Shown: in pieces, positions 1-44,459 of the stretch
How positions within the stretch are numbered: the first letter of the stretch is position 1
How the letters are laid out: the number at the start of each line of letters is the position of its first letter
Assembly (NCBI GenBank): GCA_036676985.1
Contig: JAKFBU010000061.1
Span: 1 to 64,000 of the forward strand
Length of the DNA: 64,000 bases
Direction of reading: 5' to 3'
Origin: Candidatus Sericytochromatia bacterium
GTDB lineage: Bacteria; Cyanobacteriota; Sericytochromatia; S15B-MN24; UBA4093
Position numbers and translations under genes: made by a program
Notes under the pieces: model-generated
The model's database searches: none
What the model saw: only the letters and a program-made list of their open reading frames with translations
Told to the model about the DNA's origin: nothing

Positions 1-86
1 ACCTGCTAATAGATCAAGCGACCCTCGGGTGGAACCCCGGACGAAGGCGGGTATGTAGGGTGGGTCCGTTCACAGGGAGGAAGAGC

Positions 87-122
87 TTGCGCAAGGCTTT
101 CGAGATACACGCATGGGCATGG
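87..122 (+). repeat. Junction 1: silent replacement MFS 5' end (MRKAFEIHAWA) plus core TGGGC-ATGG
   Basis: RBS AGGGAGG (74-80), then TTG at 87: ttg cgc aag gct ttc gag ata cac gca tgg gca tgg. The peptide aligns with MFS ELHSWA. Confidence 0.7.
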
Positions 123-162
123 TGTACGTCAAAGGTAGCAAAGTTGTTACAGGTCTGAGGAT

Positions 163-192
163 CCCTCTGGCGCTCGCCCAGAGGGGCTTTTT
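163..192 (+). terminator. Intrinsic terminator at left end of cassette A
   Basis: CCCTCTGG-cgctcgc-CCAGAGGG followed by GCTTTTT. The arms are identical to those at 1494-1520. Confidence 0.8.
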
Positions 193-361
193 CTGCTTAG
201 GCGTCAGGCCTGGCGTAAATCTCTCTGACTTCTATGGAGTTATAATCGCATGGTTGGCTAATGCTGTCCCTAGCCTCCTTCGAGACGTAGGCTGCTAGAG
301 CGTTTGCTCATTGGTGTATCAATGGTAGTCTTATTATCTTGGAGAAGATGTTCAGGATTTG

Positions 362-390
362 TTGACGCAGATACTTGGTGGTGCTACTGT
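362..390 (+). promoter_or_regulatory. Sigma70-like promoter for leader RNA and DUF3800 gene
   Basis: TTGACG (362-367), 17-bp spacer, TACTGT (385-390), with a TG extended -10. Confidence 0.65.
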
Positions 391-395
391 ACGTA

Positions 396-457
396 GGAAA
401 GCTCTTTACGCCGAGCTCCTGCCTATGTGGGTGCGATGAAAGCGTAAGGGGCTTTTT
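396..457 (+). ncRNA. Putative leader or small RNA with terminator-like stem upstream of DUF3800
   Basis: AAAGCTCTTTACGC (398-411) pairs with GCGTAAGGGGCTTT (442-455) around a 30-nt loop. It ends in a U-tract 3 nt before the ATG and buries the SD-like AAGGGG. Confidence 0.5.
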
Positions 458-460
458 GCC

Positions 461-1363
461 ATGAAGCGATTGGTCGTTTTTGCTGATGAGGCTTGGACCG
501 ACGAGAGCGGCCATGAGGATCGCTATTACCGGTTCTATGGTGGGTGCGCAATCGAGGAAAAAGAGCTCGATCGTGTGAATGCTGAATTCTTTGCTCTCAA
601 GGAAAAACTCGGTTTAATCGGCTCTGAGATCAAGTGGTCTAAAGTTACTAAAGACAACGCTGGGCGGATCGCTCAAATCATTGAGTGGTTTTTCACTCTC
701 GTACAAGATGGCACGATCAAGTATCGCCACCTCTTCTGCGACCGCTTGTTTACGCTTGATCACTTGACTGAAGAGCAGCGCGACAACGGGTTTTTCATCC
801 TCTATTACTTCTTTTTGAAGCGAGGGTTTGGTCTTAATCATTGTGAATATTGCCCCGAGCCGGGCGTAGGCATCCGCTTTTTCCTCGACCAGCTTCCTCA
901 GTCAAAGGAAAAGCGTGCTCGATTCGTGGAATTTCTTAAAGGAGTTCCGAATCATTCCGACCTGCGAGGACGAAATCTACTGATTACTGAGGTGGCGGAC
1001 GTCAATAGTAAGAAGCATCCCTTGCTGCAGTGCTGCGATTTGGTCATCGGGGCTTTCGGCTTCTACCTAAATCGCCGCCATAGGCATATTCCCGCCGGGA
1101 AGCATCGTCGGGCGGAGACAACGGTTGCCAAAGAATGGCTCTATCGTCAGATATACAACGCCATGCGGAGGATCGACGCAGAGCAGCGCGGAACGAAGGT
1201 ATTCAATGCTGGGGAAACAACTGGTTTAGGTGGAGACAACGCGAACCTTTGGTTCCACCGTGCCAGGATTTGGAAATTCGAGCCCAAACAGTCGTCTCGT
1301 AACGTCTACTGGAGCAACAAAAACTGGCTCGAGCGTAAACGTACTCGTGGGGGCGTTTCATAA
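461..1363 (+). CDS. DUF3800 family protein (RNase H-like fold, putative nuclease or toxin)
   Basis: N-terminal FADE motif and C-terminal QxxD (LQCCD) characteristic of DUF3800, plus EIKWSK and FFLD motifs. Confidence 0.85.
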   Translation: MKRLVVFADEAWTDESGHEDRYYRFYGGCAIEEKELDRVNAEFFALKEKLGLIGSEIKWSKVTKDNAGRIAQIIEWFFTLVQDGTIKYRHLFCDRLFTLDHLTEEQRDNGFFILYYFFLKRGFGLNHCEYCPEPGVGIRFFLDQLPQSKEKRARFVEFLKGVPNHSDLRGRNLLITEVADVNSKKHPLLQCCDLVIGAFGFYLNRRHRHIPAGKHRRAETTVAKEWLYRQIYNAMRRIDAEQRGTKVFNAGETTGLGGDNANLWFHRARIWKFEPKQSSRNVYWSNKNWLERKRTRGGVS

Positions 1364-1427
1364 GAGGGTGCTCCTTCGAATGCGGAGAGGGCCAGCGTTA
1401 AGCCGTGTTGACGAAAGTGTAGAGTCA

Positions 1428-1466
1428 TTGGTCCGTAGTAAAGCTGAGTTGCATTCCTGGGCATGG
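1428..1466 (+). repeat. Junction 2: silent replacement MFS 5' end (LVRSKAELHSWA) plus core TGGGC-ATGG
   Basis: Exact 18-nt match TGAGTTGCATTCCTGGGC (1445-1462 = 2769-2786). 1430-1462 matches 2754-2786 at 28/33 positions ungapped. Confidence 0.85.
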
Positions 1467-1480
1467 ACCGCAAACATACA

Positions 1481-1529
1481 ACAAATCGAAAGCCCCTCTG
1501 GCACTGGACCAGAGGGGCTTCCGATTTGT
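1481..1529. terminator. Hairpin/terminator at left end of cassette B, between the convergent DUF3800 and MerR genes
   Basis: 21-bp inverted repeat with one mismatch: ACAAATCGAAAGCCCCTCTGG / CCAGAGGGGCTTCCGATTTGT. Confidence 0.8.
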
Positions 1530-1531
1530 GC

Positions 1532-2032
1532 TTATCCCGCAAGCGTCAAGTAGTGACGCTCACGCTCTAGGAGTCTGTCGCGCCATCCCTTTAATGAGAT
1601 GATTTCGACGGCTTCCTTGATGATTTCACCTGGTGGAAAAATGAAGCTCTTCCAGACAATCTGCCCAGGGCGCTTCAACAGGCTGATAACGTGATCCAGG
1701 TCCTTAGGCTTGTAAATGTCAGTGCCGTCCGTTATGAGTTGGAACGACTCAAGTGATGGCGTTTCTGACCGCCAGCCAAAGGTCTCTTCAAGATAAGCAA
1801 GGGCTTTCCGGACACGCTGTAAGGATATTCCCGATTCGAGGATCCTTGCGATAACCATCAGGTCAAGGACGGTCTGAAAGCTATAGAGGGGGGTCTTTGC
1901 GTTGAGCATCGTCACATCGATGAGCCCAGTTTGGTACCAATATAGGAGCTGTCTCGGCGACGGTGGGATTAGGTTCCGTCGCTCGAAGATGGTAACCAGC
2001 TCCTGTCGAGTGAAGCCGAATACCATTGCCAT
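1532..2032 (-). CDS. MerR-family HTH DNA-binding protein (Rv1830/VapB45-HTH-like)
   Basis: Pattern RQLLYW..TGLI...LYSFQTVLDL.VIARILESGISLQRVRKAL..L...LITDG.DIY. RBS GAAAGGG. Confidence 0.8.
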   Translation of the reverse strand: MAMVFGFTRQELVTIFERRNLIPPSPRQLLYWYQTGLIDVTMLNAKTPLYSFQTVLDLMVIARILESGISLQRVRKALAYLEETFGWRSETPSLESFQLITDGTDIYKPKDLDHVISLLKRPGQIVWKSFIFPPGEIIKEAVEIISLKGWRDRLLERERHYLTLAG

Positions 2033-2073
2033 TCAAATCACCCTTTCGATAGGCAAACACAGGGAGTGACGCC

Positions 2074-2095
2074 TGACCCCTTTGTCAAGGGGTCA
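2074..2095. promoter_or_regulatory. Dyad operator upstream of the MerR-like gene
   Basis: Perfect inverted repeat TGACCCCTT-tgtc-AAGGGGTCA, overlapping TTGACC and TTGACA hexamers on the minus strand. Confidence 0.55.
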
Positions 2096-2172
2096 ATTAA
2101 GTATTTACCACAATCTCCAAAAAAAATGTGTATTTTGCACAAAAACCCTGCTCATGCATGTTGCGCGCTATG

Positions 2173-2290
2173 TGGATCCTCTGGTAGGATGCTCCAGTTG
2201 ATTGCCAAGGCGGCCTTTGCCGCCAAGGCAGAGGTCCCGCCAATCGGTAGGACCGAACGGCGGGACCTGCAGGATGATGCAACCATCATC
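2173..2290. ncRNA. Putative structured RNA or ssDNA element (four consecutive hairpins)
   Basis: Stems: ATCCT/AGGAT; TGCC-AA-GGCGGC/GCCGCC-AA-GGCA; AGGTCCCGCC/GGCGGGACCT with inner TCGGT/ACCGA; GATGATG/CATCATC. Confidence 0.45.
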
Positions 2291-2394
2291 GTGTTCTAGA
2301 AGGACCCTGATGCTAGCACTCCATTGGGGCGTTAGTCAAGGGAGAGCTCGCTGGTGGTTAGCACCTTCCTAGCACAGCAGGAAGGAGCCCACAT

Positions 2395-2481
2395 ATGGCA
2401 GTCGACAAGAACGGCCGCGTCATCGTGGGGTGGTACACCGACCGCAAGGGTCGTAAGCGTCCCATCACCAAGAAGGCGTAG
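2395..2481 (+). CDS. 28-aa basic peptide MAVDKNGRVIVGWYTDRKGRKRPITKKA (below ORF-track cutoff)
   Basis: Strong SD AGGAAGGAG 7 nt upstream, biased codon usage, and a terminator directly downstream. Confidence 0.65.
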   Translation: MAVDKNGRVIVGWYTDRKGRKRPITKKA

Positions 2482-2490
2482 CTGAAAAAA

Positions 2491-2525
2491 GCCCTGGGCC
2501 CGTAAGGGTCCAGGGTCTTCTTTTT
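2491..2525 (+). terminator. Intrinsic terminator after the small peptide
   Basis: GCCCTGGGCCC-GTAA-GGGTCCAGGGT followed by CTTCTTTTT. Confidence 0.75.
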
Positions 2526-2751
2526 ATGGTTTGCCCCATCCCCATTCCAAGGAGGAAGGCAATTCGCTTTGGCCACGTTTCCGGAAGTCAAATCAATATC
2601 AAGGCTTTGCGCCCTGCTGATAAGGGACTCTGCCCAAGGAAGGCGGGGGTGACTAAGAGGTGGCGGCTGTGCATCTGATGTCATTGAATGGGGTAGAAAG
2701 TCTATCTGCCATCAGGGCAACGGAAGCCTTAAATGAAGGAAGGGTAAGTTT

Positions 2752-4050
2752 TTGGGTCGTAGTAAGCTTGAGTTGCATTCCTGGGCGCTGTACGACTTCG
2801 CCAACACCATCTTCGCCGTCAACATGTTCACCCTCTACTTCGCCCTCTGGGTGACCAAGGACATGGGCGCCCCCGACCTCGCCTACTCGGCGGCCGTCTC
2901 CCTCTCGCTCTTCCTGGTGGCGCTCGCCTCCCCCGTCTTCGGCGCCTACTCCGACCGGATCGGCAAGCGCACGGGTCTGGTCGCCTTCTTCACCGTCCTC
3001 TCGTGCGCAGCCATCGCCCTCCTACCGCTGCTCATTCCCGTCTTCGGCAAGGGCGCCCTCATCCCTGCCCTCGTCCTCTTCGGGGTGGCCTCCTTCGCCT
3101 TCAACCTCGCCCAGGTCTTCTACAACGCCCAGCTCCCCGAGCTCGTGGACAAAGAAAAGATCGGCTGGCTCTCGGGCTACGGCGCGGGCATCGGGTACCT
3201 GGGCTCCTTCGTCGGCATCCTGTGCGTGATGCCCTTCGTCACGGGCAAGCTGCTCGGCCTCCAGACGCCCATCCCCGCCGGGGGCAACGTGGGGGCCTTC
3301 ATCCCGACGGCCGTCATCTTCCTGCTCTTCGCCTTGCCCCACCACCTCCTGGTCAAGGACCACGGCAAGCCGCGCGTCGGCGAGTCGGCCAAGCGGGCCT
3401 GGGCGCGCCTCTGGGAGACGGCCAAGGCCGCCCGCGAGGTGCCCGGCATGCTGCGCTACCTCCTCGCGAACCTGCTGTTCTTCGACGCCCTCAACACCGT
3501 CATCGGCTTCATGGCCATCTACGCCGTGAAGGTCGTGGGCTTCAACGAGCAGAAGCAGGAGGTGCAGGTCGTGCTGTTGCTCTCCACCCTGTTCGCGGCC
3601 GCAGGCTCGGTGATCTGGGGCAAGCTGGTGGACCGGATCGGCTCCAAGTCCGCCCTGCAGCTGAACCTGGCCGTGTGGGTCGTGGCCCTTCTCGGCGTCA
3701 TCTTCGTGCGCGACAAGGCCGTCTTCTCGTGGGTGCTGGGCCCGACCATCGGCATTGCCATGGGCGGCACCTGGGCGGCCTCGCGGGCTCTCCTTTCGGC
3801 GCTCGCCCCGGCGGACCGGCAGGCCGAGTTCTTCGGGCTCTACTCGCTGGCGGGCAAGTTCGCGGCCATCATCGGGCCTATGACCTGGGGCCTCATCACC
3901 TACGCCCTGTCGTCCATGCCCGTGGGCAAGTACCAGGTGGCGATCGCCGCCCAGCTGGTCTTCGTCCTCGCGGGAGCCTACCTGCTCATCAAGGTGCCGG
4001 CACCCGCGGCCGTCCGTCTCGTGGCGGAGCCCCAGCCCGAGCTTCGCTAG
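2752..4050 (+). CDS. MFS transporter, UMF1/ATG22-like; the first 11 or so codons come from cassette B
   Basis: SWALYDFAN, FYNAQLPEL, SGYG.GIGYLG and EFFGLY..AGK motifs, about 12 TM segments. TTG start after AAGGAAGGG. Confidence 0.9.
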   Translation: MGRSKLELHSWALYDFANTIFAVNMFTLYFALWVTKDMGAPDLAYSAAVSLSLFLVALASPVFGAYSDRIGKRTGLVAFFTVLSCAAIALLPLLIPVFGKGALIPALVLFGVASFAFNLAQVFYNAQLPELVDKEKIGWLSGYGAGIGYLGSFVGILCVMPFVTGKLLGLQTPIPAGGNVGAFIPTAVIFLLFALPHHLLVKDHGKPRVGESAKRAWARLWETAKAAREVPGMLRYLLANLLFFDALNTVIGFMAIYAVKVVGFNEQKQEVQVVLLLSTLFAAAGSVIWGKLVDRIGSKSALQLNLAVWVVALLGVIFVRDKAVFSWVLGPTIGIAMGGTWAASRALLSALAPADRQAEFFGLYSLAGKFAAIIGPMTWGLITYALSSMPVGKYQVAIAAQLVFVLAGAYLLIKVPAPAAVRLVAEPQPELR

Positions 4051-4089
4051 ACCACGACGGGAGCCGGCGAGGACGCCGGCGCTCCCAGG

Positions 4090-5079
4090 CTAGCGTGCGA
4101 GTTCAGGAATGCCGAGGCCTGCCGAGAGGTCGAGCTGGGACCAGTCCCCCGAGGGCACGACCTCGCCTACGTTGAAGATCCGGCCGTAGTCCTTTGGCGG
4201 AAGCAGTTGCCCCTGCTGCCGCAGCTTCCGGCAGCGTAGCGCCCCATCGCCCGATTGGATGACGACCCCCCGGGGGCCCGCCTCCAGCACCTCTCCCGGG
4301 ACGGCTCCCGGGCGACCGGGGACCGGATCCGCCTCCAGGATGGCCGTGACCGTGTCTCCCGCGAACGCGAAGGCGCCCGGCTGAGGGTGGCAGGCCCGGA
4401 TCATGCGCAGCAGGTGCTCTGCCGGCGCGCGCCAGTCCAGGTGCCCCTCGGCGAAGGTGATGCGCGGAGCACCCGTGACGACTCCCTCCTGCTTAACGGC
4501 GTGCAGCGTCCCGGACTCGAGGCCCGCGATCGCCTCCAGCATCGCCGCCGGCGCCGCGTCCGCCATGCGGTCGAAGACGTCGAGCAGGGTGTCCTCCGGC
4601 TGCAGCGGGATCCGGTGCAGCGAGAGGATGGGGCCCGTGTCGACCCCCTCGTCCATCATGTGCAGGGTGAAGCCCGTCTCGCTTTCGCCCGAGAGGATGG
4701 CCCGGGCGACGGGCGCCGGCCCCCGCCAGCGCGGCAACAGCGACGGGTGCAGGTTCATGCCGCCGAGGCGGGCCATGGCGAGCACCTCGGGCGGCAGGAT
4801 CTTGTCGTAGATGGAGACGACCAGCAGGTCGGGACGCTGGCGCTCGAGCCACTCCAGGAAGTCGGGCGATCGCAGCTTGGCGGGGCGCACGAGCGGCAGG
4901 CGATGCCGACGGGCGAGGGCCTCCAGGCCGCTGGGGCGGAGGCGCTGGAGCAGGCGCTGAAGCGAAGAGCTCGGCGCAGCCGGGAGGGTGACCACCCCCA
5001 CGACGTCGTGACCGGCTTTCAACAGGGCCGCGAGGCAGCGCTCGGCGATGACCTCGGCCCCGAAGTAAATGATGCGCAT
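4090..5079 (-). CDS. Methionyl-tRNA formyltransferase-like protein
   Basis: NLHPSLLPRWRGPAP and ETGFTLH.MD.GVDTGPI motifs. Could be fmt or a sugar formyltransferase. Confidence 0.85.
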   Translation of the reverse strand: MRIIYFGAEVIAERCLAALLKAGHDVVGVVTLPAAPSSSLQRLLQRLRPSGLEALARRHRLPLVRPAKLRSPDFLEWLERQRPDLLVVSIYDKILPPEVLAMARLGGMNLHPSLLPRWRGPAPVARAILSGESETGFTLHMMDEGVDTGPILSLHRIPLQPEDTLLDVFDRMADAAPAAMLEAIAGLESGTLHAVKQEGVVTGAPRITFAEGHLDWRAPAEHLLRMIRACHPQPGAFAFAGDTVTAILEADPVPGRPGAVPGEVLEAGPRGVVIQSGDGALRCRKLRQQGQLLPPKDYGRIFNVGEVVPSGDWSQLDLSAGLGIPELAR

Positions 5080-5322: not shown

Positions 5323-5781
5323 CTAGGGGCGCTCGTTGAGCAAAGGCAACGGAACGGGAGGGTTCGCCTCCTTGAGGGTGAAGCGCTGCTCGCCGCAGAT
5401 GCTCGTCCAGTCGCACCCCACGCAGACCTGTTTCATGAGATCGGCATGGTGGGCGTGGATGTGGTCCATGACCGGGGCGAGCGCGACGACCTCGCCCTCC
5501 TCCCAGCCCATGGCGGCGAGCATGCGGCGATCGCGCTCGGAGATCGAGGCATGGTAGCGGCAGCTCGTGTCGACCGCGGGATCCTGCAGGTTGGGGCAGG
5601 CGCCGCAGAGGGGATCCGCCACGCTCGTGGCGCGCACCTGGTCGTAGGCGCCGGCGCGCAGGGCGTGCCAGACGCGGTTCATGTTCGCGACGAACTCGGG
5701 GGAGTAGCCTTTCCCCTGGTAGGTCGTGACGCACATGAGGTGGTGGGCCCGGAGGGGCAACAGGTTCGCAGGATCGTCCAT
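5323..5781 (-). CDS. DUF1284 family protein (Cys-rich, putative Fe-S)
   Basis: LRAHHLMC..YQGKGYS..F..N, D.LC.ACP and C.GC.W...C motifs. Confidence 0.8.
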   Translation of the reverse strand: MDDPANLLPLRAHHLMCVTTYQGKGYSPEFVANMNRVWHALRAGAYDQVRATSVADPLCGACPNLQDPAVDTSCRYHASISERDRRMLAAMGWEEGEVVALAPVMDHIHAHHADLMKQVCVGCDWTSICGEQRFTLKEANPPVPLPLLNERP

Positions 5782-5839
5782 GCCTCCATTCTAGCGTGAA
5801 CCGGCGCCTCGGGGGCATTTTCGGTATAATGACTCCCTT

Positions 5840-8233
5840 ATGGCTATGGACGACAAGACTCTCAAGATGCTGGAATGGCCCCGGGTGGTGGAGCTCCTCG
5901 CGGAGCGCGCCACCTTCGAGCCGGGGCGCGATCGCTGCCGCGCGGTCGAGGTGCACACCGACCTCGACGCCGTCTCCCACGCGCTGCGCCTCACCACCGA
6001 GGCCAAGGACCTGCTGCGCGACACGCAGAGCTTCCCCATGGGTGGCCTGCACGACCTGCGCGCCGTGATCCGCCGCCTGGATCAGGGTGCGGACCTGGAT
6101 GGGCCAGAGCTCCTGGCGATCGCCCACACCCTCGCCTCCGCGCGGCGCCTCAAGAGCTTCCTCGCGGACCACGACGAGGAGTACCCGGCCTTGGCCGAGC
6201 TCGCCGTGCCCATCGTGCCCCTGCCCAAGGTGATCGACGAGATCCAGCGCTGCTTCGACCCGTCCGGCGAGGTGGCCGATCACGCGAGCCCCGAGCTTGC
6301 GACCATCCGCCACAAGCTGCACTCGGGCCAGGCCGAGATCCGCACCAAGCTCCAGCGCATGCTCCGCAGCCACGCCGACGCCCTGCAGGAGACGATCATC
6401 ACGGTGCGGGGCGATCGCTTCGTCCTGCCCGTGCGCGCCGACGCCAAGGGCCAGGTGCCGGGCATCGTCCACGACCAGTCCTCGACGGGCGTAACGCTCT
6501 TCATCGAGCCCATGGCCGTCGTCGAGCTCAACAACCAGGTCACCAAGCTGCGGCTCGACGAGCGCAACGAGATCGCCCGCATCCTCGCGCGCCTCACCGC
6601 CCTCGTCTCGGGGCACGGCGAGGAGATCCGCTGGACCATGGACGCCGTGGCGGAGATCGACTTCACCTACGCCAAGGCCCGCCTCTCCCAGGCGCTCGAC
6701 GGCTTCCACCCGCGCCTCGACAAGCAGGGCGCGACCATCCTCTACGGGGCGCGCCACCCCTTGCTCGCGGCCCGGCAGCTCAACGCCGACAAGCCCGAGA
6801 AGGTCGTGCCCATCGACGTCAGCGTGGGCGATCGCCACCAGGCCGTCATCATCACGGGCCCCAACACGGGCGGCAAGACCGTGACCCTCAAGACCCTCGG
6901 CCTGGTCACGCTCATGACCCAGGCGGGCCTGCATCCTCCGGTGGCGCCCGGCTCGCAGGTGGCCCTCTACCGGCAGGTCTTCTCGGACATCGGCGACGAG
7001 CAGAGCCTCCAGCAGAACCTGTCCACCTTCTCCGGCCACATGAAGAACATCATCCGCATCCTCCAGAAGGCCGATCACCGCACGCTCGTCCTGTTGGACG
7101 AGCTGGGCGCGGGCACCGATCCGCAAGAGGGCGCAGCACTCGCTCGGGCCATCATCGACACCCTGCTCGAGCGCGGCTCGCGCCTGGTGGCCACCACCCA
7201 CTACGGCGAGCTCAAGCTCCTCGCCTACGAGCAGGCGGGCGTCATCAACGCCTCGGTCGAGTTCGACGTGAAGACCCTCTCGCCCACCTACCGCCTGCTC
7301 ATGGGCGTGCCGGGCCAGTCCAACGCCATCACGATCGCCTCGGCCCTGGGCCTCAACCCGGAGATCGCGGGGCGGGCGCGCGAGCACCTCAAGAGCGGCA
7401 AGTCGGACGCCGCCGAGATCATCGGCCAGCTCGAGCAGGAGCAGCACGCGGCCGCCAAGGCGCGGGCCGACGCGGATCGCAAGCTCGCCGAGGCCGAGCG
7501 CATGCGCGCCGAGTACGAGGCCAAGCTCGCCAACTGGAGCCAGGAGCGCAAGGAGCTGCGCGAGAAGGCCCGCGACGCCATCCAACAGGAACTCGCCGCC
7601 ACCCGCGAGGAGATCGCGTCGATCACCCGCGAGCTGCAGGGCAGCAAGACGGCCCAGACCGCCCAGAAGTCCTACGACCGTCTCTCCAAGCTCAAGGGCC
7701 GCATGCAGAAGAACGAGCGGCCCGCGAACACGGTGAACGCCCGGACCTTGATGGTCGGCGACAGCGTCTTCGTGCCGCGCCTCAACCAGACGGGCGTCGT
7801 CCAGACCCTGCCCGATGCGAGCGGCGACGTCGTCCTCCAGGTCGGGATCATGAAGGTCACGGCCAAGATCGGCGAGCTGCAGCCCGCCACCAAGGAGACC
7901 ACGCGCCAGGCCGCCAAGAACCAGCCCGTCCCCTTCACGCCCAAGGCCTCCCGGCGCCAGAGCTCCGGATCGTCCACCGGCGGTCGTCAGGGCGGCATGG
8001 ATCTCGATCTGCGCGGCAAGATGGTCCATGAGGCCCTCAACGACGTGGATCTGTTCCTCGACATGGCCCTGGAATCGGATCTGAAGAACGTGTACCTGAT
8101 CCACGGCGGAGGCACGGGCGCCCTGCGGAGCGGCATCCGCGAGCACCTGCAACGCAGCCCCTACGTGGCCTCCTTCCGCCCCGGCGAGCAAGGCGAGGGC
8201 GGCGACGGCGTCACGGTCGTTACGCTCCGCTAG
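5840..8233 (+). CDS. mutS2: Endonuclease MutS2
   Basis: ITGPNTGGKT, DIGDEQS..QNLSTFSGHM, LLDELGAGTDP and a C-terminal Smr domain (LDLRG...IHG.GTG.LR). Confidence 0.95.
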   Translation: MAMDDKTLKMLEWPRVVELLAERATFEPGRDRCRAVEVHTDLDAVSHALRLTTEAKDLLRDTQSFPMGGLHDLRAVIRRLDQGADLDGPELLAIAHTLASARRLKSFLADHDEEYPALAELAVPIVPLPKVIDEIQRCFDPSGEVADHASPELATIRHKLHSGQAEIRTKLQRMLRSHADALQETIITVRGDRFVLPVRADAKGQVPGIVHDQSSTGVTLFIEPMAVVELNNQVTKLRLDERNEIARILARLTALVSGHGEEIRWTMDAVAEIDFTYAKARLSQALDGFHPRLDKQGATILYGARHPLLAARQLNADKPEKVVPIDVSVGDRHQAVIITGPNTGGKTVTLKTLGLVTLMTQAGLHPPVAPGSQVALYRQVFSDIGDEQSLQQNLSTFSGHMKNIIRILQKADHRTLVLLDELGAGTDPQEGAALARAIIDTLLERGSRLVATTHYGELKLLAYEQAGVINASVEFDVKTLSPTYRLLMGVPGQSNAITIASALGLNPEIAGRAREHLKSGKSDAAEIIGQLEQEQHAAAKARADADRKLAEAERMRAEYEAKLANWSQERKELREKARDAIQQELAATREEIASITRELQGSKTAQTAQKSYDRLSKLKGRMQKNERPANTVNARTLMVGDSVFVPRLNQTGVVQTLPDASGDVVLQVGIMKVTAKIGELQPATKETTRQAAKNQPVPFTPKASRRQSSGSSTGGRQGGMDLDLRGKMVHEALNDVDLFLDMALESDLKNVYLIHGGGTGALRSGIREHLQRSPYVASFRPGEQGEGGDGVTVVTLR

Positions 8234-8508
8234 AAATTAGCTTAATTCCAAGTTAAGAGTCCCCGCGACACCCGCCCGACCCACCGGTCGCGCGGGTGTC
8301 ATTGGTGATCGCGATCACCGTTCGGCGCCGTTTGGGACGGTCGATGTCAACAAACTGGCAAGCTGATCAAATTTAATCTCGAGTCGCCAATACATTTAAA
8401 CTGGGTTTAAACGAACCGGGACAAGATCCTCAGCCCCTCCGCGATAAAGCTAGTAACGCAACCAAGGGCTTGTGTGAGAGCGGGCCCGGTGAGACTGAGG
8501 AGAGAACG

Positions 8509-9291
8509 ATGAGCAGCGTACTCGGGTATGTTTGGACCCACCCCGAAGCCGTCGACGCCGATGCCATTTCGGCCGAGCAGGATTCCATCCGCGCCTACTG
8601 CGAAGCCCACAACATGAGCCTCGAGGGCATGAAGGTCGATGCCGGCGCCCTCGGTGCTGCCCTCGAGCGCCCCTCGATGAAGCAGATCGCCGAGAAGGAG
8701 AACATCACGGTCGTCGTCGCTTCGCTCGTGAGCCTGGGCCGTCGCTTCCACGACGTCGCCACCGTCCTGTCGGAGTTCAGCCACAAGGACATCCGCCTCA
8801 TCAGCGTCCAGGAGAACATCGACACCCAGCGTCCCGACGGTCAGCAGCTCCTGAAGCTCTTCGTCACCATTCCTCAGGTCGCCAGCTGGGTCCGTCCTCC
8901 CAAGGCCGGCAGCGCGCCCAAGGTCTTCGTCCGCAACCGCGAAGTGCTCCACAACGGCGGCACCTGCCCCTACGGCTACAGCCTGGACGAGGCCACCAAC
9001 CAGTTCGTCGTCAACCAGAAGGAAGCCGCCGTCGTTCAGCGCATCTTCCGTGAGCGCGCCGCTGGCCGCTCGCTGCGCCAGATCGCCAACGACCTGACCC
9101 GCGACGGCATCGCCACCAAGCGTGGTGGCCGGTGGCAGGCCAACACGGTGAAGACGATCCTCGAGAACATCTTCTACACCGGCGATTACCAGTGCCAGAA
9201 CCGCATCTACGCCGACGACCACGAGGCCGTCATCTCGAAGGAGATGTTCGCCGAGGTGAACTCCTCGGAGGAGATCCTCCAGGTCTGCTAA
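8509..9291 (+). CDS. Serine-recombinase homologue (resolvase-like plus recombinase domain), catalytic residues degenerate
   Basis: RBS GAGGAG. ENIDT, PYGY, EAAVVQRIF, SLRQIANDL, W...TV..IL.N.FY.G and HEA.IS motifs. YxRVS is replaced by YVWTH. Confidence 0.85.
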   Translation: MSSVLGYVWTHPEAVDADAISAEQDSIRAYCEAHNMSLEGMKVDAGALGAALERPSMKQIAEKENITVVVASLVSLGRRFHDVATVLSEFSHKDIRLISVQENIDTQRPDGQQLLKLFVTIPQVASWVRPPKAGSAPKVFVRNREVLHNGGTCPYGYSLDEATNQFVVNQKEAAVVQRIFRERAAGRSLRQIANDLTRDGIATKRGGRWQANTVKTILENIFYTGDYQCQNRIYADDHEAVISKEMFAEVNSSEEILQVC

Positions 9292-9324
9292 CAAGCGTCC
9301 ATCCCCCAGTCCCATTCCGCTCTC

Positions 9325-9362
9325 ACCCCGAGGGAGCCGACGAAAGTCGGCTCCCTCGGGGT
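9325..9362. terminator. Strong hairpin terminator
   Basis: Perfect 17-bp stem with a GAAA loop. Confidence 0.8.
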
Positions 9363-9576
9363 TTCTGGGTGTTTCAATAGGCGAGGGTTCAGGAATATAG
9401 CAGGCATGGTTGCTGTTGAAGTGGCTCACGGCCTTCCTGGTGGACCGGTTCTGGGACGGAGTCGAGCGGATCCTCGCTCGCAGCATGAAGCGACTGGGGA
9501 TGCGGCTTGTCCCGTAGGAAACAATGCCTTCCCTGGCGGTATGATGGAATGCGTGATCGCTCGACAAGGAGTTGCT

Positions 9577-10305
9577 ATGAACCGGATCGGCCTGACCCTG
9601 TTGACCCTCGTCGCCCTTTCCAGAAGTGCCGCCGCGGCTCCGCTCGCCACTCCCTTCGAGTTGAAGCTGCAGGCCTCCCTGGAGCTCGAGCGCGAGACCT
9701 ACGCGGACCGGATCCAGGAGGCGGTGTACGACGTCGTCGACAACTTCGCGTGTTGGGGATTCGCGATTGAGCCGCGATCGCTCGTCCGGCACGTTCAGGT
9801 CTTCGCGGACCTGCAGACGGCCCGGACCACCATCGCCAAGGCCTTCAACGCCAAGCCCGAGGACCTGCCTGAGACCTTCGGCGGTCTGGCGACCAACGAT
9901 CAGTTTTACCTGGCGTCGCCCGAGCTCTTTCGCAAGACCTGGGACAAGCAGTATGGGGCGGCCGCCTGGAACGAGCGAACCTACCATCGCCTCATGATGC
10001 ACGAGCTCTCGCACACGGCCCACGCGCAATTTGCCGTCAAGGTCCTCGGCGACGAGGAGCAGATGGGGCCGACCTGGTTCTTCGAGGGCTTCGCATGCTA
10101 TTCGGCGGGCCAATTTTCGGACCAGCCCGCGCTCGCTCGGGCTGACTTCACCCGCCAACTCGCCGAGATCCGCGCGGGCAAGCAGGCCGGCTACCCGGCA
10201 TACGCACGAATGGTCTCCACGCTGGCAGCCAAGGTTCCGGTTCCCGTGCTACTGCGGCATGCGGGCGACAAGGACTTCCCTGAAGCCTTCCTCTCGCAGT
10301 TGTAG
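9577..10305 (+). CDS. Secreted zincin-like metallopeptidase (gluzincin, MA clan)
   Basis: Signal peptide, HELSH and downstream WFFEGFA. RBS AAGGAG. Confidence 0.7.
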   Translation: MNRIGLTLLTLVALSRSAAAAPLATPFELKLQASLELERETYADRIQEAVYDVVDNFACWGFAIEPRSLVRHVQVFADLQTARTTIAKAFNAKPEDLPETFGGLATNDQFYLASPELFRKTWDKQYGAAAWNERTYHRLMMHELSHTAHAQFAVKVLGDEEQMGPTWFFEGFACYSAGQFSDQPALARADFTRQLAEIRAGKQAGYPAYARMVSTLAAKVPVPVLLRHAGDKDFPEAFLSQL

Positions 10306-10308
10306 CGG

Positions 10309-10659
10309 CTATCCCTCGACCATGTCCTCGGTCACGACCTCTCCGGTCACCGAGTGCATGCGCAGCCGGGCCGGGATGAGGTTCGGCCACCGCTCCGCCG
10401 GAGCGAAGGGCTCCAGACGCTTGGCCACGTACCAGGCCAGACGGATGGCAAGGGCCTCGGAGCGCGTGTTCCAGCTGAAGGCCACCTGCGACACGTAGGT
10501 CTCCGCCTCGTTGTAGTTCCAGTAGACGGCGACCATCCAGCGGTTGCCGGATCCCGACACCGCGATGTCGGCCCCGCCTCCCGAGAGGAAGAGGGCGTAG
10601 GGCTGGGCTCCCGGTTCGAGGTGGCCGTTCACCTCGGTGGTGGTGTCGTGGAAGATCAC
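10309..10659 (-). CDS. Hypothetical protein (116 aa)
   Basis: GTG start overlaps the upstream TGA (GTGA). Protein-like C-terminal part of the 337-aa ORF. Confidence 0.55.
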   Translation of the reverse strand: MIFHDTTTEVNGHLEPGAQPYALFLSGGGADIAVSGSGNRWMVAVYWNYNEAETYVSQVAFSWNTRSEALAIRLAWYVAKRLEPFAPAERWPNLIPARLRMHSVTGEVVTEDMVEG

Positions 10660-11315
10660 GCCGTTCGTTCGAAGCCACCGTTGCGAGGGGGCTGCGGCGC
10701 CGGCTCCATGACCTGGTCGAGGCGCCGGAAGTCGACCTGGAGGCGCTGGAAGTCGACGGCGTGCACGCCATCGAAGCGCGTGAACAGGTTGCTGAACAGG
10801 GACAGCGTCCATGCGGCGAAGGCCACGGGCAACTTCAGGCCGCCCGAGCCGAGCTGGAAGCTGTTGAAGTTGAAGTGGAACACCCCGGGGCCCACCTGGG
10901 TCGGCAGGGCGTTGACGTTGAAGGGGACCTTCCAGCCGAACAGGTTGAACTCGCCCCGCACCTGCAAGGTCCGGTCGTCGTTGACGTGCAGGGTCATGAA
11001 GGTCAAGGCGCCGCCCGAAGGGAACTCGAGCGTGTTGTCGACCGGCACGTCGAGGATGCCGTACCGCGCGTTGCCCGTGAGCCGCGCATGGGTGGCGTTG
11101 AAGTCCAGGCGAAAGTCGCGGCCGTGCTTGCCGGCGAGGATGTCCTCGATCTCGAGCGTCGCGGTGACGGGAATGAAGCCTAGCACGTCCTTGGTGACCA
11201 CCAGATCCCCTTGCGCGTTGACGCGCATGTCGCCGCCGCCCGCCGAGACGGGTGCTTTTGGCGCGGCCGGGGGCCGGGCGGGCATGTTCGGGATTGAGCC
11301 AACGGTTGCGATCAT
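10656..11315 (-). CDS. Hypothetical beta-rich protein
   Basis: Host-like codon usage, RBS AGAGG. Confidence 0.65.
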   Translation of the reverse strand: MIATVGSIPNMPARPPAAPKAPVSAGGGDMRVNAQGDLVVTKDVLGFIPVTATLEIEDILAGKHGRDFRLDFNATHARLTGNARYGILDVPVDNTLEFPSGGALTFMTLHVNDDRTLQVRGEFNLFGWKVPFNVNALPTQVGPGVFHFNFNSFQLGSGGLKLPVAFAAWTLSLFSNLFTRFDGVHAVDFQRLQVDFRRLDQVMEPAPQPPRNGGFERTA

Positions 11316-11386
11316 GGGGCACCTCTTGCCGGAGTTATCGCCCGCTGCCGGACCCCTATTTCTTATCTCGGGTTGAAGCTTTGGTC

Positions 11387-11420
11387 AAAAAGAAGCACGG
11401 GCGCCTAGAGGCGCCCGTGC
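11387..11420 (-). terminator. Terminator ending the long minus-strand cluster
   Basis: GCACGGGCGCC/GGCGCCCGTGC stem followed by TTCTTTTT on the minus strand. Confidence 0.75.
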
Positions 11421-11439
11421 CGTTTGTGGCGGGTGGAGG

Positions 11440-11934
11440 CTAGGCCTTCAGGAACTTGAAGAAGGTCTTGCCCATGACGATCTCGTCGCCGTCCTTGAGG
11501 GGCTGGGGGCTGCCGGGCAAGAGGCGGGGCCCACGGTTGACGTAGGTGCCGTTGAGGCTGCCCAGATCCTCGACCAGGTACTCGCCGGCCTCGACGTAGA
11601 GACGGGCGTGCCGACGCGAGATCTTGGCCTCGTCGTCGTCAGAGGTCAGGTCCACCTCGGGGAAGGCGCCGCCGTCGGGATCCCAGCGACCGATGTGCGT
11701 CTCGCCGGAGGCCTCGACGGCAAACTCCTTGCCCACGGTGCCGCCGCGGGTGATCACGAGCTTGGCCTGGTAGTTCGCGGGCTCGCTCACGACGGGCGAA
11801 GCACCGCCCGTGGAGCCTGCGGTCACCGGAGCGGCCGCCGGAATCGTCGCGGTGACGGCGAGCTTGCTGCCGCACTCATCGCAGAACTGGACGCCGGCTT
11901 GATTTTCGTGGTTGCACGAGACGCAAACGGTCAT
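11440..11934 (-). CDS. Zinc-ribbon plus FHA domain protein
   Basis: CxxC..CxxC, then IGR..ISRRHA..EDLGSLNGTYVN. Confidence 0.9.
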   Translation of the reverse strand: MTVCVSCNHENQAGVQFCDECGSKLAVTATIPAAAPVTAGSTGGASPVVSEPANYQAKLVITRGGTVGKEFAVEASGETHIGRWDPDGGAFPEVDLTSDDDEAKISRRHARLYVEAGEYLVEDLGSLNGTYVNRGPRLLPGSPQPLKDGDEIVMGKTFFKFLKA

Positions 11935-11953
11935 TGGAACTCCCTTTCCAGGC

Positions 11954-12307
11954 TTAGGCCGTGTGGAACTTGAAGAAGGTCTTGCCCATGACGAGCTCGT
12001 CGCCGTCCTTGAGGGCCTGCGGGCTGCCCGGCAGCAGGCGGGGCCCACGGTTGACGTAGGTGCCGTTGAGGCTGCCGAGGTCCTCGACGAAGAACTCATC
12101 GTTCTCGACGTAGATGCGGGCGTGCTTGCGCGAGATCTTGGCCTCGTTGTCGTCCGACGTCAGGTCGACCTCGGGGAAGGCGCCGCCATCGGGATCCCAG
12201 CGGCCGATCAGCGTCTCGCCGGAGGATTCCAGGGCAAACTCCTTGCCCACCGTGCCACCGCGGGTGATCACGATCTTGGCCGTCTGGGTGCTAGTAGTGT
12301 CGCTCAT
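11954..12307 (-). CDS. FHA domain protein
   Basis: IGR..ISRKHA..EDLGSLNGTYVN, near-identical to the adjacent FHA domain. Confidence 0.9.
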   Translation of the reverse strand: MSDTTSTQTAKIVITRGGTVGKEFALESSGETLIGRWDPDGGAFPEVDLTSDDNEAKISRKHARIYVENDEFFVEDLGSLNGTYVNRGPRLLPGSPQALKDGDELVMGKTFFKFHTA

Positions 12308-43568: not shown

Positions 43569-44459
43569 ATGCGATCCCTCGACGCCTACCGAGATGACTT
43601 TATCATGCACCTGCAGGTGGAGCGGAACCTTTCCGCCCACTCGCTCAAAGCCTATCGGCAAGATCTCGATCAGTTCCATCGCTTTCTGGGCGACGTGCCC
43701 CTGCCCGCGGTCGACTACCTCACCATCCGGCGCTACCTCGGGGAGCTATCCTCCAAGGGCTACGAGCGCACCTCCATGGCCCGCAAGCTCGCGACTCTCA
43801 GGACCTACTTCCGCTTCCTGGCCAAGGAGCGCCACGTGGAGGCCAACCCCCTCTCCCTGGTCTCGAGCCCCAAGTCCATTCGCCGCCTGCCCAAGTTCCT
43901 GGACTGGACCGAGCTCAAGAGCCTGCTCGGGGCTCCCGACATGGAGACCGCCCTGGGGCTGCGCGATCGCGCGATCCTCGAGCTCCTCTACGCCACCGGC
44001 ATGCGCGTGGGCGAGATCGTCGCCCTCGCGGTCTCGGCCATCGACTGGCAAGAGCGGGAGATCGTGGTCTTCGGCAAGGGCTCCAAGGAGCGCGTGGTCC
44101 TGATGGACGACCACTCGGCGGAGCTCTTGCAGCGCTACCTGCAGGAGGCGCGAGCGCGCCTGGTGGGGCGATCCCCCGACTCGGGCGTGCTCTTCGTCAA
44201 CCGCCAGGGCCAGGGCCTCAACCAGCGCTCGGTGCAGCGCATGATCCAGAAGTACGTGCAGCTCGCCGGCATCGAGAAGCGCATCAGCCCACACACGCTG
44301 CGCCACACCTTCGCCACGCACCTCCTGGAGGGCGGGGCGGACCTGCGCGTGGTCCAGGAGCTCCTCGGGCACGCCAGCCTCTCCACCACCCAGATCTACA
44401 CCCACGTGAGTCAAGAGCGCCTGCGCGAAGTCTACAAGCAGTCACACCCCCGTTCTTGA
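43569..44459 (+). CDS. xerC: Tyrosine recombinase XerC/XerD
   Basis: LRDRAILELLYATGMR, GKGSKER, HTLRHTFATHLLEGGADLR.VQELLGH and TTQIYT motifs. Confidence 0.9.
   Translation: MRSLDAYRDDFIMHLQVERNLSAHSLKAYRQDLDQFHRFLGDVPLPAVDYLTIRRYLGELSSKGYERTSMARKLATLRTYFRFLAKERHVEANPLSLVSSPKSIRRLPKFLDWTELKSLLGAPDMETALGLRDRAILELLYATGMRVGEIVALAVSAIDWQEREIVVFGKGSKERVVLMDDHSAELLQRYLQEARARLVGRSPDSGVLFVNRQGQGLNQRSVQRMIQKYVQLAGIEKRISPHTLRHTFATHLLEGGADLRVVQELLGHASLSTTQIYTHVSQERLREVYKQSHPRS

What the first reader, a model, noticed from the sequence alone, without database searches (positions are those of the whole stretch)
1..2790. Tandem array of integrase-less ~1.33-kb cassettes, each carrying its own replacement N-terminus for the target MFS gene
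Seen: the core TGGGC recurs at 114, 1458 and 2782. Each copy is preceded in frame by a variant of the MFS start: MRKAFEIHAWA (TTG at 87, RBS AGGGAGG), LVRSKAELHSWA (1428) and MGRSKLELHSWA (2752, the one fused to LYDFAN of the host gene). Junction 1 is conserved mainly at the protein level (gag ata cac gca tgg vs gag ttg cat tcc tgg), so selection appears to keep a usable MFS start. The two internal junctions continue ATGG and then the same CCCTCTGGC-n6-CCAGAGGGGCTT hairpin. The cargo differs completely and neither unit encodes a recombinase. Established: elements that integrate into a CDS often carry a fragment that restores the gene. Inference: these are non-autonomous, circularisable gene cassettes stacked at one attB by a recombinase acting in trans. 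That would be an integron-like system whose recombination site is a host-gene 5' mimic rather than attC.
Basis: partly seen in the sequence, partly recalled or inferred. Interest (0 to 1): 0.92.

Follow-up and report, generated by a model that had tools for sequence, protein, structure and literature searches.

The report
Integrase-less cassettes stacked in transporter gene
Two small foreign DNA units with no recombinase of their own sit one behind the other inside the start of a membrane-transporter gene of an uncultured cyanobacterial relative, each bringing a spare gene start so the transporter stays intact; this is a clean, apparently still mobile example of a known way in which mobile DNA piles up at one site.

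Summary
TGGGC recurs at 114, 1458 and 2782. A 40-nt right end and a 27-nt hairpin are repeated, and the 2,668 bp between the outer cores has about 50% GC in a 67% GC genome.

The start at 87-118 is not a cassette-borne mimic. It is the native start of the UMF1/Atg22-type MFS gene. A same-genus genome and five close database homologues have exactly this start fused to LYDFAN. The left flank, on another contig that overlaps the window by 123 nt, is ordinary host DNA. So the array has two units, 119-1462 and 1463-2786, and does not continue leftward.

Contigs from three other runs, drawn from two studies, carry the precise empty site. The source run also holds a third, different unit with the same ends and its own in-frame start.

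Neither unit encodes a recombinase. None lies within about 10 kb on the left or about 40 kb on the right, and no helper was found in the genome.

Best reading: these are non-autonomous site-specific integrative elements (CIME-like, or like ccr-less SCC units). They accreted in tandem and are moved in trans by an unidentified recombinase.

The integron analogy holds only loosely. The scan has noted the same pattern on other DNA at least 8 times.

The parts
1..86 (+). Native upstream region of the MFS gene, with RBS AGGGAGG at 74-80.
   Evidence: G001 locus L003 1088-1165 aligns to window 49-128 at 80%. The sequence was read.
87..118 (+). Native MFS start (TTG plus 10 codons, MRKAFEIHAWA), ending in the core TGGGC. 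This is attL (host arm, core, element-1 arm). Now cut off from the gene, it reads on to a stop at 156-158.
   Evidence: The same-genus genome G001 has the uninterrupted LRKGFEVHAWALYDFAN. P0001 (96% identical) starts MRKAFEIHAWALYDFAN. The truncated ORF is listed.
114..118 (.). Core copy 1 (TGGGC), the crossover region.
   Evidence: The empty-site joint runs 113->2782, with 5 letters that fit either side.
119..1462 (+). Element 1 (1,344 bp, GC about 0.50). It has a left-end module, one cargo gene and a right-end module.
119..199 (+). Left-end module of element 1: ATGG, a GCAAA motif, and a terminator-like hairpin at 162-186 followed by a T-run.
   Evidence: It aligns with 1463-1540.
461..1363 (+). 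Cargo of element 1: a 300-aa DUF3800 protein that matches the candidate defence family PDC-M04A.
   Evidence: Pfam PF12686, E 1.5e-10. PADLOC PDLC04353, E 1.4e-19. Only 5 homologues at 34-37% identity were found.
1388..1462 (+). Right-end module of element 1, with a spare MFS start (TTG 1428, LVRSKAELHSWA) ending in core copy 2 (1458-1462).
1463..2786 (+). Element 2 (1,324 bp, GC about 0.52).
   Evidence: Pieces 1919-2084, 2103-2253 and 2630-2802 are found with no differences in run X2, which is from another study.
1463..1540 (.). Left-end module of element 2: ATGG, GCAAAC, and a 20-pair hairpin at 1482-1528. On the minus strand the hairpin also serves as the terminator of the MerR-type gene.
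   Evidence: The fold has z = -6.05, and 0 of 200 shuffles fold as well.
1532..2032 (-). Cargo of element 2: a 166-aa MerR-type HTH protein.
   Evidence: Pfam MerR_1, E 1.3e-5. The best relative is 50% identical and 6 relatives reach E<=1e-10. There was no homologue in 400 other genomes of the phylum.
2396..2482 (+). Cargo of element 2: a 28-aa basic peptide ORF with a strong RBS, followed by a terminator at 2491-2516 and a T-run.
   Evidence: No family hit.
2714..2786 (+). Right-end module of element 2, with the start now used by the MFS gene (TTG 2752, MGRSKLELHSWA) ending in core copy 3 (2782-2786). This is attR.
2752..4050 (+). The hybrid MFS gene (432 aa, UMF1/Atg22-type). Its first 11 codons come from element 2 and the rest from the host.
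   Evidence: Pfam MFS_1 2.9e-37 and ATG22 4.3e-34. GC rises at about 2790.

Best explanation
Two non-autonomous, site-specific integrative elements (119-1462 and 1463-2786) have been inserted one after the other into codons 10-12 of a UMF1/Atg22-type MFS transporter gene of a Sericytochromatia bacterium. The crossover lies within the 5-bp core TGGGC.

Each element is a compact unit made of three parts:
- a shared left-end module of about 80-90 nt, consisting of ATGG and a terminator hairpin. The hairpin would stop transcripts coming in from the now-orphaned native promoter and start;
- about 1.1 kb of unrelated cargo. In element 1 this is a DUF3800 candidate defence gene. In element 2 it is a MerR-type regulator plus a small basic peptide;
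- a shared right-end module of about 70 nt, carrying an RBS, a start codon and 11 codons that rebuild the MFS reading frame.

Shown: the insertion, the native start, the empty allele, the rebuilt frame, the lack of any recombinase gene in the units, and a third unit with the same ends in the same sample.

Inferred: a recombinase encoded elsewhere recombines a circular form (right end, TGGGC, left end) with attB or with a resident attL or attR, which produces the tandem accretion. I lean slightly to a large serine recombinase, because the common core is only 5 bp and the target is a gene 5' end. A heterology-tolerant tyrosine recombinase is nearly as likely.

The elements belong to the kind published as CIMEs, or ccr-less SCC units.
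For: 1. Native start and empty site. G001 (same genus, MFS 80% identical) has the left arm of junction 1 joined directly to the right arm of junction 3. It is syntenic on both flanks. P0001-P0005 (80-96% identical) all start MRKAFE[IV]HAWALYDFAN or a one- or two-residue variant of it.

2. The precise empty allele is seen elsewhere. The joint 113->2782 skips 2,668 nt, with 5 letters shared between the two sides. It is present in 2 contigs of X2, 1 of X3 and 1 of X4, and in none of X1.

3. A third unit exists in the source run X1. One contig matches the window up to 123 and then diverges. Another matches from 2758 on, preceded by different sequence. Read in frame with the window, the second contig gives an ATG start at the same position as the TTG of elements 1 and 2 (my reading of the consensus). 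The extra depth in the flanking bins is about 5.5-6, against 19.2 for the array. The genome assembly breaks exactly there: the reverse complement of C19 ends with window 1-123.

4. The ends are shared and the cargo is unrelated.

5. No recombinase domain is found in either unit. None is found in 10 candidate ORFs over about 10 kb of the left flank.

6. The target is conserved. TGGGC within the codons for HAWALYDF is kept in 14 of 19 relatives' loci.

7. [quoted passage not shown]
Against: No trans-acting recombinase was identified. The recombinases found in G000 are:
- two Xer-type enzymes;
- two island integrases, one of which belongs to a tRNA-SeC island with its own 60-nt att repeat;
- a 244-aa CcrB-like fragment;
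- a catalytically dead serine-recombinase-like host gene.

None of these is linked to this att site, and no second copy of the element ends exists in the genome.

No circle junction was reported in the contigs laid. Contigs drop rare forms, so this is weak evidence.

No other member of the family was found. The searches were:
- an exact 18-mer scan of metagenome and genome collections, which gave 13 loci, all chance hits;
- 46 other genomes of the class, by DNA and by pattern;
- viral contigs, plasmids and phages.

Dyad symmetry around the core is not above background: best 6-8 of 12, with a null mode of 7. The site architecture therefore does not reveal the enzyme class.

Only 4-5 nt to the right of the core are shared by all three units. 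The next shared motif sits at a variable distance, 7 or 19 nt from the core. That is unusual for a simple recombinase half-site.
Confidence: 0.68

Rival explanations
1. Immobile scars. The two units are decayed leftovers of once integrase-bearing elements. They are no longer mobilised, and the polymorphism reflects old insertions plus strain turnover or flank-mediated homologous exchange.
For: No helper recombinase is linked to this att site in the 100%-complete genome. No circle junction was seen. No further family member was found in any collection searched. CIMEs are by definition decay products (PMC5704250, passage read).
Against: The units are compact, with intact cargo genes, terminators and no pseudogene debris. 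All three units keep a start codon at the same position although the neighbouring bases differ. Element 2 pieces are identical (0 differences in 490 nt) in a run from a different study and habitat. At least two haplotypes coexist in one sample.
Confidence: 0.15
2. A dedicated cassette-exchange system. This would be a family of ~1.3-kb single-cargo cassettes whose recombination site mimics a host-gene 5' end, handled by a specialised recombinase in the way an integron handles attC cassettes.
For: Three different units share the same bipartite ends. The two complete units have nearly equal length, 1,344 and 1,324 bp. Each carries one small cargo module.
Against: No integron integrase or any recombinase lies beside the array. 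The right ends do not fold (z +1.30, -0.63, +0.35, -1.44), so there is no attC-like structure. The cargo lies on both strands with its own terminators, so there is no common promoter logic. Only one occupied site is known.
Confidence: 0.1
3. Single-strand (HUH, IS200/IS605-type) insertion 3' of the pentanucleotide TGGGC. On this reading the units are non-autonomous derivatives (PATE-like) with a subterminal left-end hairpin.
For: Each unit lies 3' of TGGGC and ends in TGGGC. There are no terminal inverted repeats. A conserved hairpin sits 31-45 nt inside the left end. The features of that transposon family are recalled, not taken from a call.
Against: No Y1 transposase (PF01797) was found in G000, whereas the control genomes rang in 6 of 14. 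The right ends have no significant hairpin. The left hairpins behave as ordinary terminators with T-runs. The right end encodes an in-frame gene start that resembles the target, which fits att-site logic better.
Confidence: 0.04
4. Xer-dependent integration (IMEX-like), in which the host XerC/XerD act on the element site.
For: Two Xer-type recombinases are present, and one lies on the same contig at window 43569-44459. IMEX elements lack their own integrase (recalled).
Against: The target is a coding sequence, not a chromosome dimer resolution site. No dyad of two binding arms around a 6-8-nt spacer stands out. The genome's dif site was not identified here, so its similarity to these sites was not tested.
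Confidence: 0.03

Closest known systems
Cis-mobilizable elements (CIMEs) accreted in tandem at the att site of ICEs/IMEs (Streptococcus; PMC5704250 and PMC7563491, passages read)
   Same: Both are units bounded by attL/attR-type repeats, with cargo but no integration or transfer genes. Both are stacked in tandem at one target gene. The published size range of 1.2-13 kb includes these 1.3-kb units.
   Different: Published CIMEs sit at gene 3' ends, usually next to a resident ICE or IME that supplies the integrase, and are regarded as decay products. Here the array is made of small units only. It sits in a gene 5' end, shows no decay debris, and has no helper in the genome.
dusA-specific integrative elements and SXT at prfC (PMC8409611, abstract and passages read)
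   Same: Both integrate inside the 5' end of a conserved gene, with the element supplying a new, diverged in-frame N-terminus and expression signals.
   Different: Those elements are 23-37 kb and encode their own tyrosine integrase and RDF. These are 1.3 kb and have neither.
Staphylococcal cassette chromosome composite islands with ccr-less pseudo-SCC units (10.1101/336396, abstract in the search listing; Ccr as a large serine recombinase is recalled)
   Same: Both have recombinase-less cassettes stacked with others at a single chromosomal att site and bounded by short direct repeats, with mobilisation thought to occur in trans.
   Different: SCC units target the 3' end of rlmH, are many kilobases long, and usually share the island with a ccr-bearing unit. 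The recombinase class here is unknown.
Microcin H47 genomic island (PMC3191183, abstract read)
   Same: Both are small islands flanked by imperfect direct repeats that lack their own recombination genes and rely on functions supplied by the cell.
   Different: That island is 13 kb, is a single unit, and does not rebuild a gene start.
Integron cassette arrays, and CALINs (attC clusters without an integrase; recalled)
   Same: Both are arrays of small, mostly single-gene units with a conserved recombination end and no recombinase inside the units.
   Different: Here there is no IntI, no attC fold and no G/TT crossover. The cargo is not co-oriented or promoterless, and the site lies inside a coding sequence.

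Membership tests
CIME (cis-mobilizable element) | Bounded by attL/attR-type direct repeats left by site-specific integration. | tested here: met
   TGGGC and related arms are present at all three junctions. The precise empty site is seen in G001 and in contigs of X2-X4.
CIME (cis-mobilizable element) | No integrase or excision genes and no transfer genes. | tested here: met
   Pfam, NCBIfam, PHROGs and PADLOC find only DUF3800 and MerR-type domains in the units.
CIME (cis-mobilizable element) | Derived by decay of an ICE or IME. | tested here: inconclusive
   No remnants of integrase, relaxase or coupling-protein genes are present. The origin cannot be told.
CIME (cis-mobilizable element) | Mobilised in cis with an adjacent ICE/IME that shares the att site. 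| tested here: not met
   No ICE, IME or integrase lies beside the array. No other copy of the ends exists in the genome. Whether the third unit seen in run X1 is such a helper is unknown.
Integron | An IntI-type tyrosine recombinase with attI next to the array. | tested here: not met
   The PF00589 hits in G000 lie at C61:43896, C4, C62, C41 and C76, and none is near the array. The left flank has no recombinase. The integron-integrase models score below their cut-off on the genome's recombinases tested.
Integron | Cassette ends are attC sites that fold as imperfect hairpins. | tested here: not met
   The right ends do not fold better than shuffles. The only hairpins are terminator-like with T-runs.
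Integron | Promoterless, co-oriented cassettes read from a common promoter. | tested here: not met
   The cargo lies on both strands with its own terminators.
5'-end-targeting integrative elements (dusA/prfC type) | The element supplies an in-frame replacement N-terminus for the target gene. | tested here: met
   TTG 2752 plus 11 codons lie in frame with the host MFS. The equivalent spare start lies at 1428.
5'-end-targeting integrative elements (dusA/prfC type) | The element encodes its own integrase and directionality factor. | tested here: not met
   No recombinase domain is present. The MerR-type protein of element 2 could be a regulator or an excision helper, but this was not tested.
SCC / pseudo-SCC composite island | Integration by a Ccr-type large serine recombinase at rlmH. 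| tested here: not met
   The target is the 5' end of an MFS gene. The only nearby serine-recombinase-like gene (8509-9291) lacks the nucleophile and is a conserved host gene in 30 of 31 genomes of the class.
IS200/IS605-derived non-autonomous elements | Hairpins at both ends and a Y1 HUH transposase available in the cell. | tested here: not met
   No PF01797 match in G000. No right-end hairpin.
IMEX (Xer-exploiting elements) | An element site that resembles the host dif site. | not tested
   Xer-type genes are present, but the dif site was not identified. No two-arm dyad lies around the core.

The most novel reading that the evidence does not exclude
The three units are members of a dedicated family of minimal, about 1.3-kb mobile cassettes. 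Each is one cargo module between a fixed terminator end and a fixed 'gene-start' end. A specialised recombinase, not yet seen, inserts, stacks and swaps them at the conserved HAWALYDF codons of UMF1 transporters. Functionally this would be an integron-like defence and regulator cassette exchange built on a host-gene 5' mimic.
Probability: 0.12. Interest if true: 0.7.

Novelty: new member of a known kind. Interest (0 to 1): 0.42.

Why it matters
This is a tidy, population-resolved case of how very small DNA units without any recombinase can enter, stack in and leave a conserved gene while keeping that gene working. It comes from a little-studied lineage, the non-photosynthetic Sericytochromatia.

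Several forms are seen together: the empty site, a two-unit array, a third unit in the same sample, and an identical unit in another habitat. This makes the locus a good place to catch the missing helper recombinase and to ask how such minimal hitchers spread candidate defence genes.

It does not open a new category. The published CIME, SCC and dusA-type literature already covers the logic.

Tried and rejected
Searches for more family members all came back empty:
- The exact 18-nt right-arm scan returned 10 loci from metagenome contigs and 3 from genome contigs. All are chance hits without the MFS or ATGG context.
- The array DNA against 46 other genomes of the class gave only one 29-nt chance match.
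- A degenerate 29-nt right-arm pattern with up to 3 mismatches, in the same 47 genomes, matched only the two window copies.
- The hairpin pattern in viral contigs gave 0 matches.
- The array against plasmids and phages gave no match.
- The MerR-type protein had no homologue in 400 other genomes of the phylum.

The third unit's left-end consensus was not found in G000, in viral contigs or in the 47 class genomes. Its content, including whether it carries the recombinase, is therefore unknown.

The nearby serine-recombinase-like gene (8509-9291) was considered as the helper and rejected. It lacks the nucleophile region, is only 260 aa, and is a conserved syntenic host gene in 30 of 31 genomes, including those with an empty site.

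The C62 island integrase was rejected because it has its own tRNA-SeC att with a 60-nt repeat.

Low-GC stretches at other contig ends (C4, C46, C59) share no sequence with the array.

A dyad-symmetry scan of the att sites was uninformative.

In run X2, element 2 pieces are present and element 1 pieces are absent. At depth 2-3.7 this is only a weak hint that element 2 can sit there alone. The absence of a circle joint in contigs is likewise not evidence of absence.

Supplementary files of the papers cited were not opened.

Full report
**The observation.**
- TGGGC lies at 114-118, 1458-1462 and 2782-2786.
- Each copy is preceded in frame by a TTG start and 10-11 codons, beginning at 87, 1428 and 2752.
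- The first two copies are followed by ATGG and then a conserved hairpin.

The repeat finder reports 1423-1462 against 2747-2786 (40 nt, 83%) and 163-189 against 1494-1520 (27 nt, 89%). A blastn of 1-2850 against the whole genome finds these as the only internal repeats (E 5e-4 and 8e-8), and no other copy anywhere in 4.68 Mb.

About 70 nt of the right ends and about 80-90 nt of the left ends are related, while the cargo between them is not.

GC is 0.48-0.57 over 1-2750 and 0.65-0.73 downstream. The genome mean is 0.673.

**Where the window sits.** The window is the first 64 kb of contig C61. The reverse complement of contig C19 ends with exactly window 1-123, that is, up to the base after TGGGCATGG. 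The contig break is therefore an assembly-graph branch at the first junction, not the edge of the array.

The left flank on C19 is host-like. It holds a lipoprotein-like ORF, an ORF I read by eye as rhodanese-like, an ORF with a motif I recognise as QueF (no family search hit either of these two), a subtilase and an M16 peptidase. No recombinase domain was found in the 10 ORFs tested.

**Junction 1 is the native gene start.** The MFS gene was searched in 40 related genomes and 19 relatives' loci were read.
- The same-genus genome G001 (80% identical protein) has the RBS, TTG and LRKGFEVHAWA running straight into LYDFAN. This is the left arm of junction 1 fused to the right arm of junction 3.
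- G001 is syntenic with C19 on the left and with the MFS gene on the right.
- In the protein database, the five closest homologues (P0001-P0005, 80-96% identical) start MRKAFEIHAWALYDFAN or a near variant. None of the 120 listed proteins carries the ELHSWA start.

So 87-118 is the original start, now orphaned; it reads on to a stop at 156-158. There are only two inserted units, 119-1462 (1,344 bp) and 1463-2786 (1,324 bp).

The nucleotide likeness of the native arm to the element arms is modest: 7 of 12 nt, p about 0.012 among 22,881 TGGGC sites. The target itself, the codons for HAWALYDF, is conserved. TGGGC is kept in 14 of 19 relatives' loci.

**Polymorphism.** Contigs of four public runs were laid on 1-4200.
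- *Empty site.* A joint from 113 to 2782 skips exactly 2,668 nt, with 5 letters that fit either side. It is present in 2 contigs of X2 (another study, groundwater), 1 of X3 and 1 of X4 (same study as the source). It is absent from X1, the likely source. The bridging contigs are near-identical to the window in the flanks: 1 other letter in 113 nt for X3, and 25 in 669 nt for X4. The precise empty site therefore exists in close relatives.
- *A third unit.* In X1 the two-unit array is one 2,710-nt contig at depth 19.2. One further contig matches the window up to 123 and then continues with unrelated sequence. Another matches from 2758 on and is preceded by unrelated sequence. The flanking bins carry about 5.5-6 more depth than the array. 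A second haplotype, with a different unit (or units) but the same junction sequences, thus coexists in the sample. This explains the contig break. Read in frame with the window, its right end has an ATG where elements 1 and 2 have TTG, followed by N and then the same RSKLELHSWA (my reading of the consensus). All three units keep a start codon at the same position although the neighbouring bases differ.
- *Element 2 elsewhere.* X2 also holds three pieces of element 2 (1919-2084, 2103-2253 and 2630-2802, the last crossing into the MFS gene) with no differences, at depth 2-3.7. It holds nothing of element 1. At that depth this is only a hint that element 2 can be there alone.
- *Circles.* No circle joint was reported, but contigs drop rare forms.

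**What the units carry.**
- Element 1 has one gene, a 300-aa DUF3800 protein (Pfam E 1.5e-10). It matches the PADLOC candidate defence family PDC-M04A (E 1.4e-19). Its database relatives number only five, at 34-37% identity.
- Element 2 has a 166-aa MerR-type HTH protein on the minus strand. A word-based search found only itself. A full HMMER search found 6 relatives at E<=1e-10, the best 50% identical. None was found in 400 other genomes of the phylum.
- Element 2 also has a 28-aa basic peptide ORF with a strong RBS and a terminator.
- Neither unit has a recombinase, transposase, relaxase or replication domain.
- The conserved left-end hairpins behave as terminators with T-runs. The hairpin of element 2 is very stable (z -6.05) and also ends the MerR-type gene. 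Rfam gave only a sub-threshold ctRNA-like hit on that hairpin.

**Search for the helper.** G000 is 100% complete by marker genes. Its recombinase inventory is:
- two Xer-type recombinases, one at window 43569-44459;
- a 382-aa integrase in a 6.67-kb island at tRNA-SeC, with its own 60-nt repeat;
- a 426-aa integrase and a 244-aa CcrB-like fragment on C41;
- a pseudogene fragment on C76.

The serine-recombinase-like gene 5.7 kb downstream of the array (8509-9291) has Resolvase and Recombinase domains. However, it is only 260 aa and lacks the nucleophile region (YVWTH where active enzymes have the Arg-x-Ser motif; the motif is recalled). It is present and largely syntenic in 30 of 31 genomes of the class, including genomes with an empty site. 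It is a host gene, not the element's integrase.

No Y1 HUH transposase is present. No other copy of the element ends exists in the genome. The enzyme is therefore not in this bin.

Site architecture does not settle its class. Dyad symmetry around the core is at background, and the right ends do not fold. The very short common core (5 bp) and the 5'-end target lean towards a large serine recombinase. Earlier notes of this scan report such enzymes behind similar stacks on other DNA. Those notes are unchecked leads, and I could not test the idea here.

**Comparison with what is known.**
- *CIMEs.* Elements that have lost their integration and transfer genes but kept attL and attR, and that accrete in tandem with other elements, are published as CIMEs (PMC5704250, passages read). 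In Streptococcus salivarius, 'classical CIMEs' carry cargo and measure 1.2-13 kb (PMC7563491, passages read).
- *5'-end targeting.* Elements that enter the 5' end of a gene and supply a new promoter and a diverged in-frame N-terminus are shown for dusA, and cited for SXT at prfC (PMC8409611, abstract and passages read).
- *Other integrase-less units.* Examples are the microcin H47 island (PMC3191183, abstract read) and pseudo-SCC units in SCC composite islands (10.1101/336396, abstract in the search listing).
- *Lineage.* A search for Sericytochromatia together with integrase returned two papers, neither about such elements (listing only).
- *This scan.* It has noted the same pattern, integrase-less cassettes stacked at a gene end and each restoring that end, on at least 8 other stretches of DNA.

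**Verdict.** It is wrong on junction 1 and overstated on novelty.

What is distinctive here is the following combination:
- small, clean units, in an array made only of such units;
- a 5'-end target in a UMF1-type MFS gene;
- a little-studied lineage;
- direct evidence from several samples for empty, differently filled and identically filled sites.

The recombinase and the excised form remain to be shown.

Noticed in passing
window 8509-9291 (+): A 260-aa protein with Resolvase and Recombinase (large-serine-recombinase) domains. It lacks the nucleophile region and the zinc-ribbon/coiled-coil tail. It is conserved in 30 of 31 genomes of the class, often a few kb from the MFS gene. It looks like a domesticated, catalytically dead recombinase of unknown role.
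   Followed up: partly
G000:C62:9206-16332 (locus L040 about 5400-12200): A 6.67-kb low-GC island integrated at tRNA-SeC. It has a perfect 60-nt direct repeat and its own integrase with an N-terminal excisionase-type domain.
   Followed up: partly
G000:C19:124-575 (locus L001), just upstream of the native MFS promoter: About 430 nt here have no counterpart in the same-genus genome G001. The stretch includes a 47-aa ORF (L001 230-373) that is divergent from the MFS gene. This could be a small extra insertion or a fast-evolving spacer.
   Followed up: no
G000:C4:750-2250, C46:250-2250, C59:1-2250 (loci L050-L052): Three other contigs begin with low-GC islands (0.38-0.53) of about 2 kb next to high-GC host DNA. 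This suggests further polymorphic insertions at assembly breaks. They share no sequence with the array. C46 carries a 429-aa ORF in DNA of 0.41 GC.
   Followed up: partly
window 119-1462 vs 1463-2786: The two complete units differ in length by only 20 bp (1,344 vs 1,324) despite unrelated cargo. With two units this may be chance. If it holds for more units, it would hint at a size constraint.
   Followed up: no
window 2160-2395: A region of about 230 nt rich in stem-loops lies between the MerR-type gene's promoter region and the peptide ORF. It has no Rfam match at E<=1.
   Followed up: no
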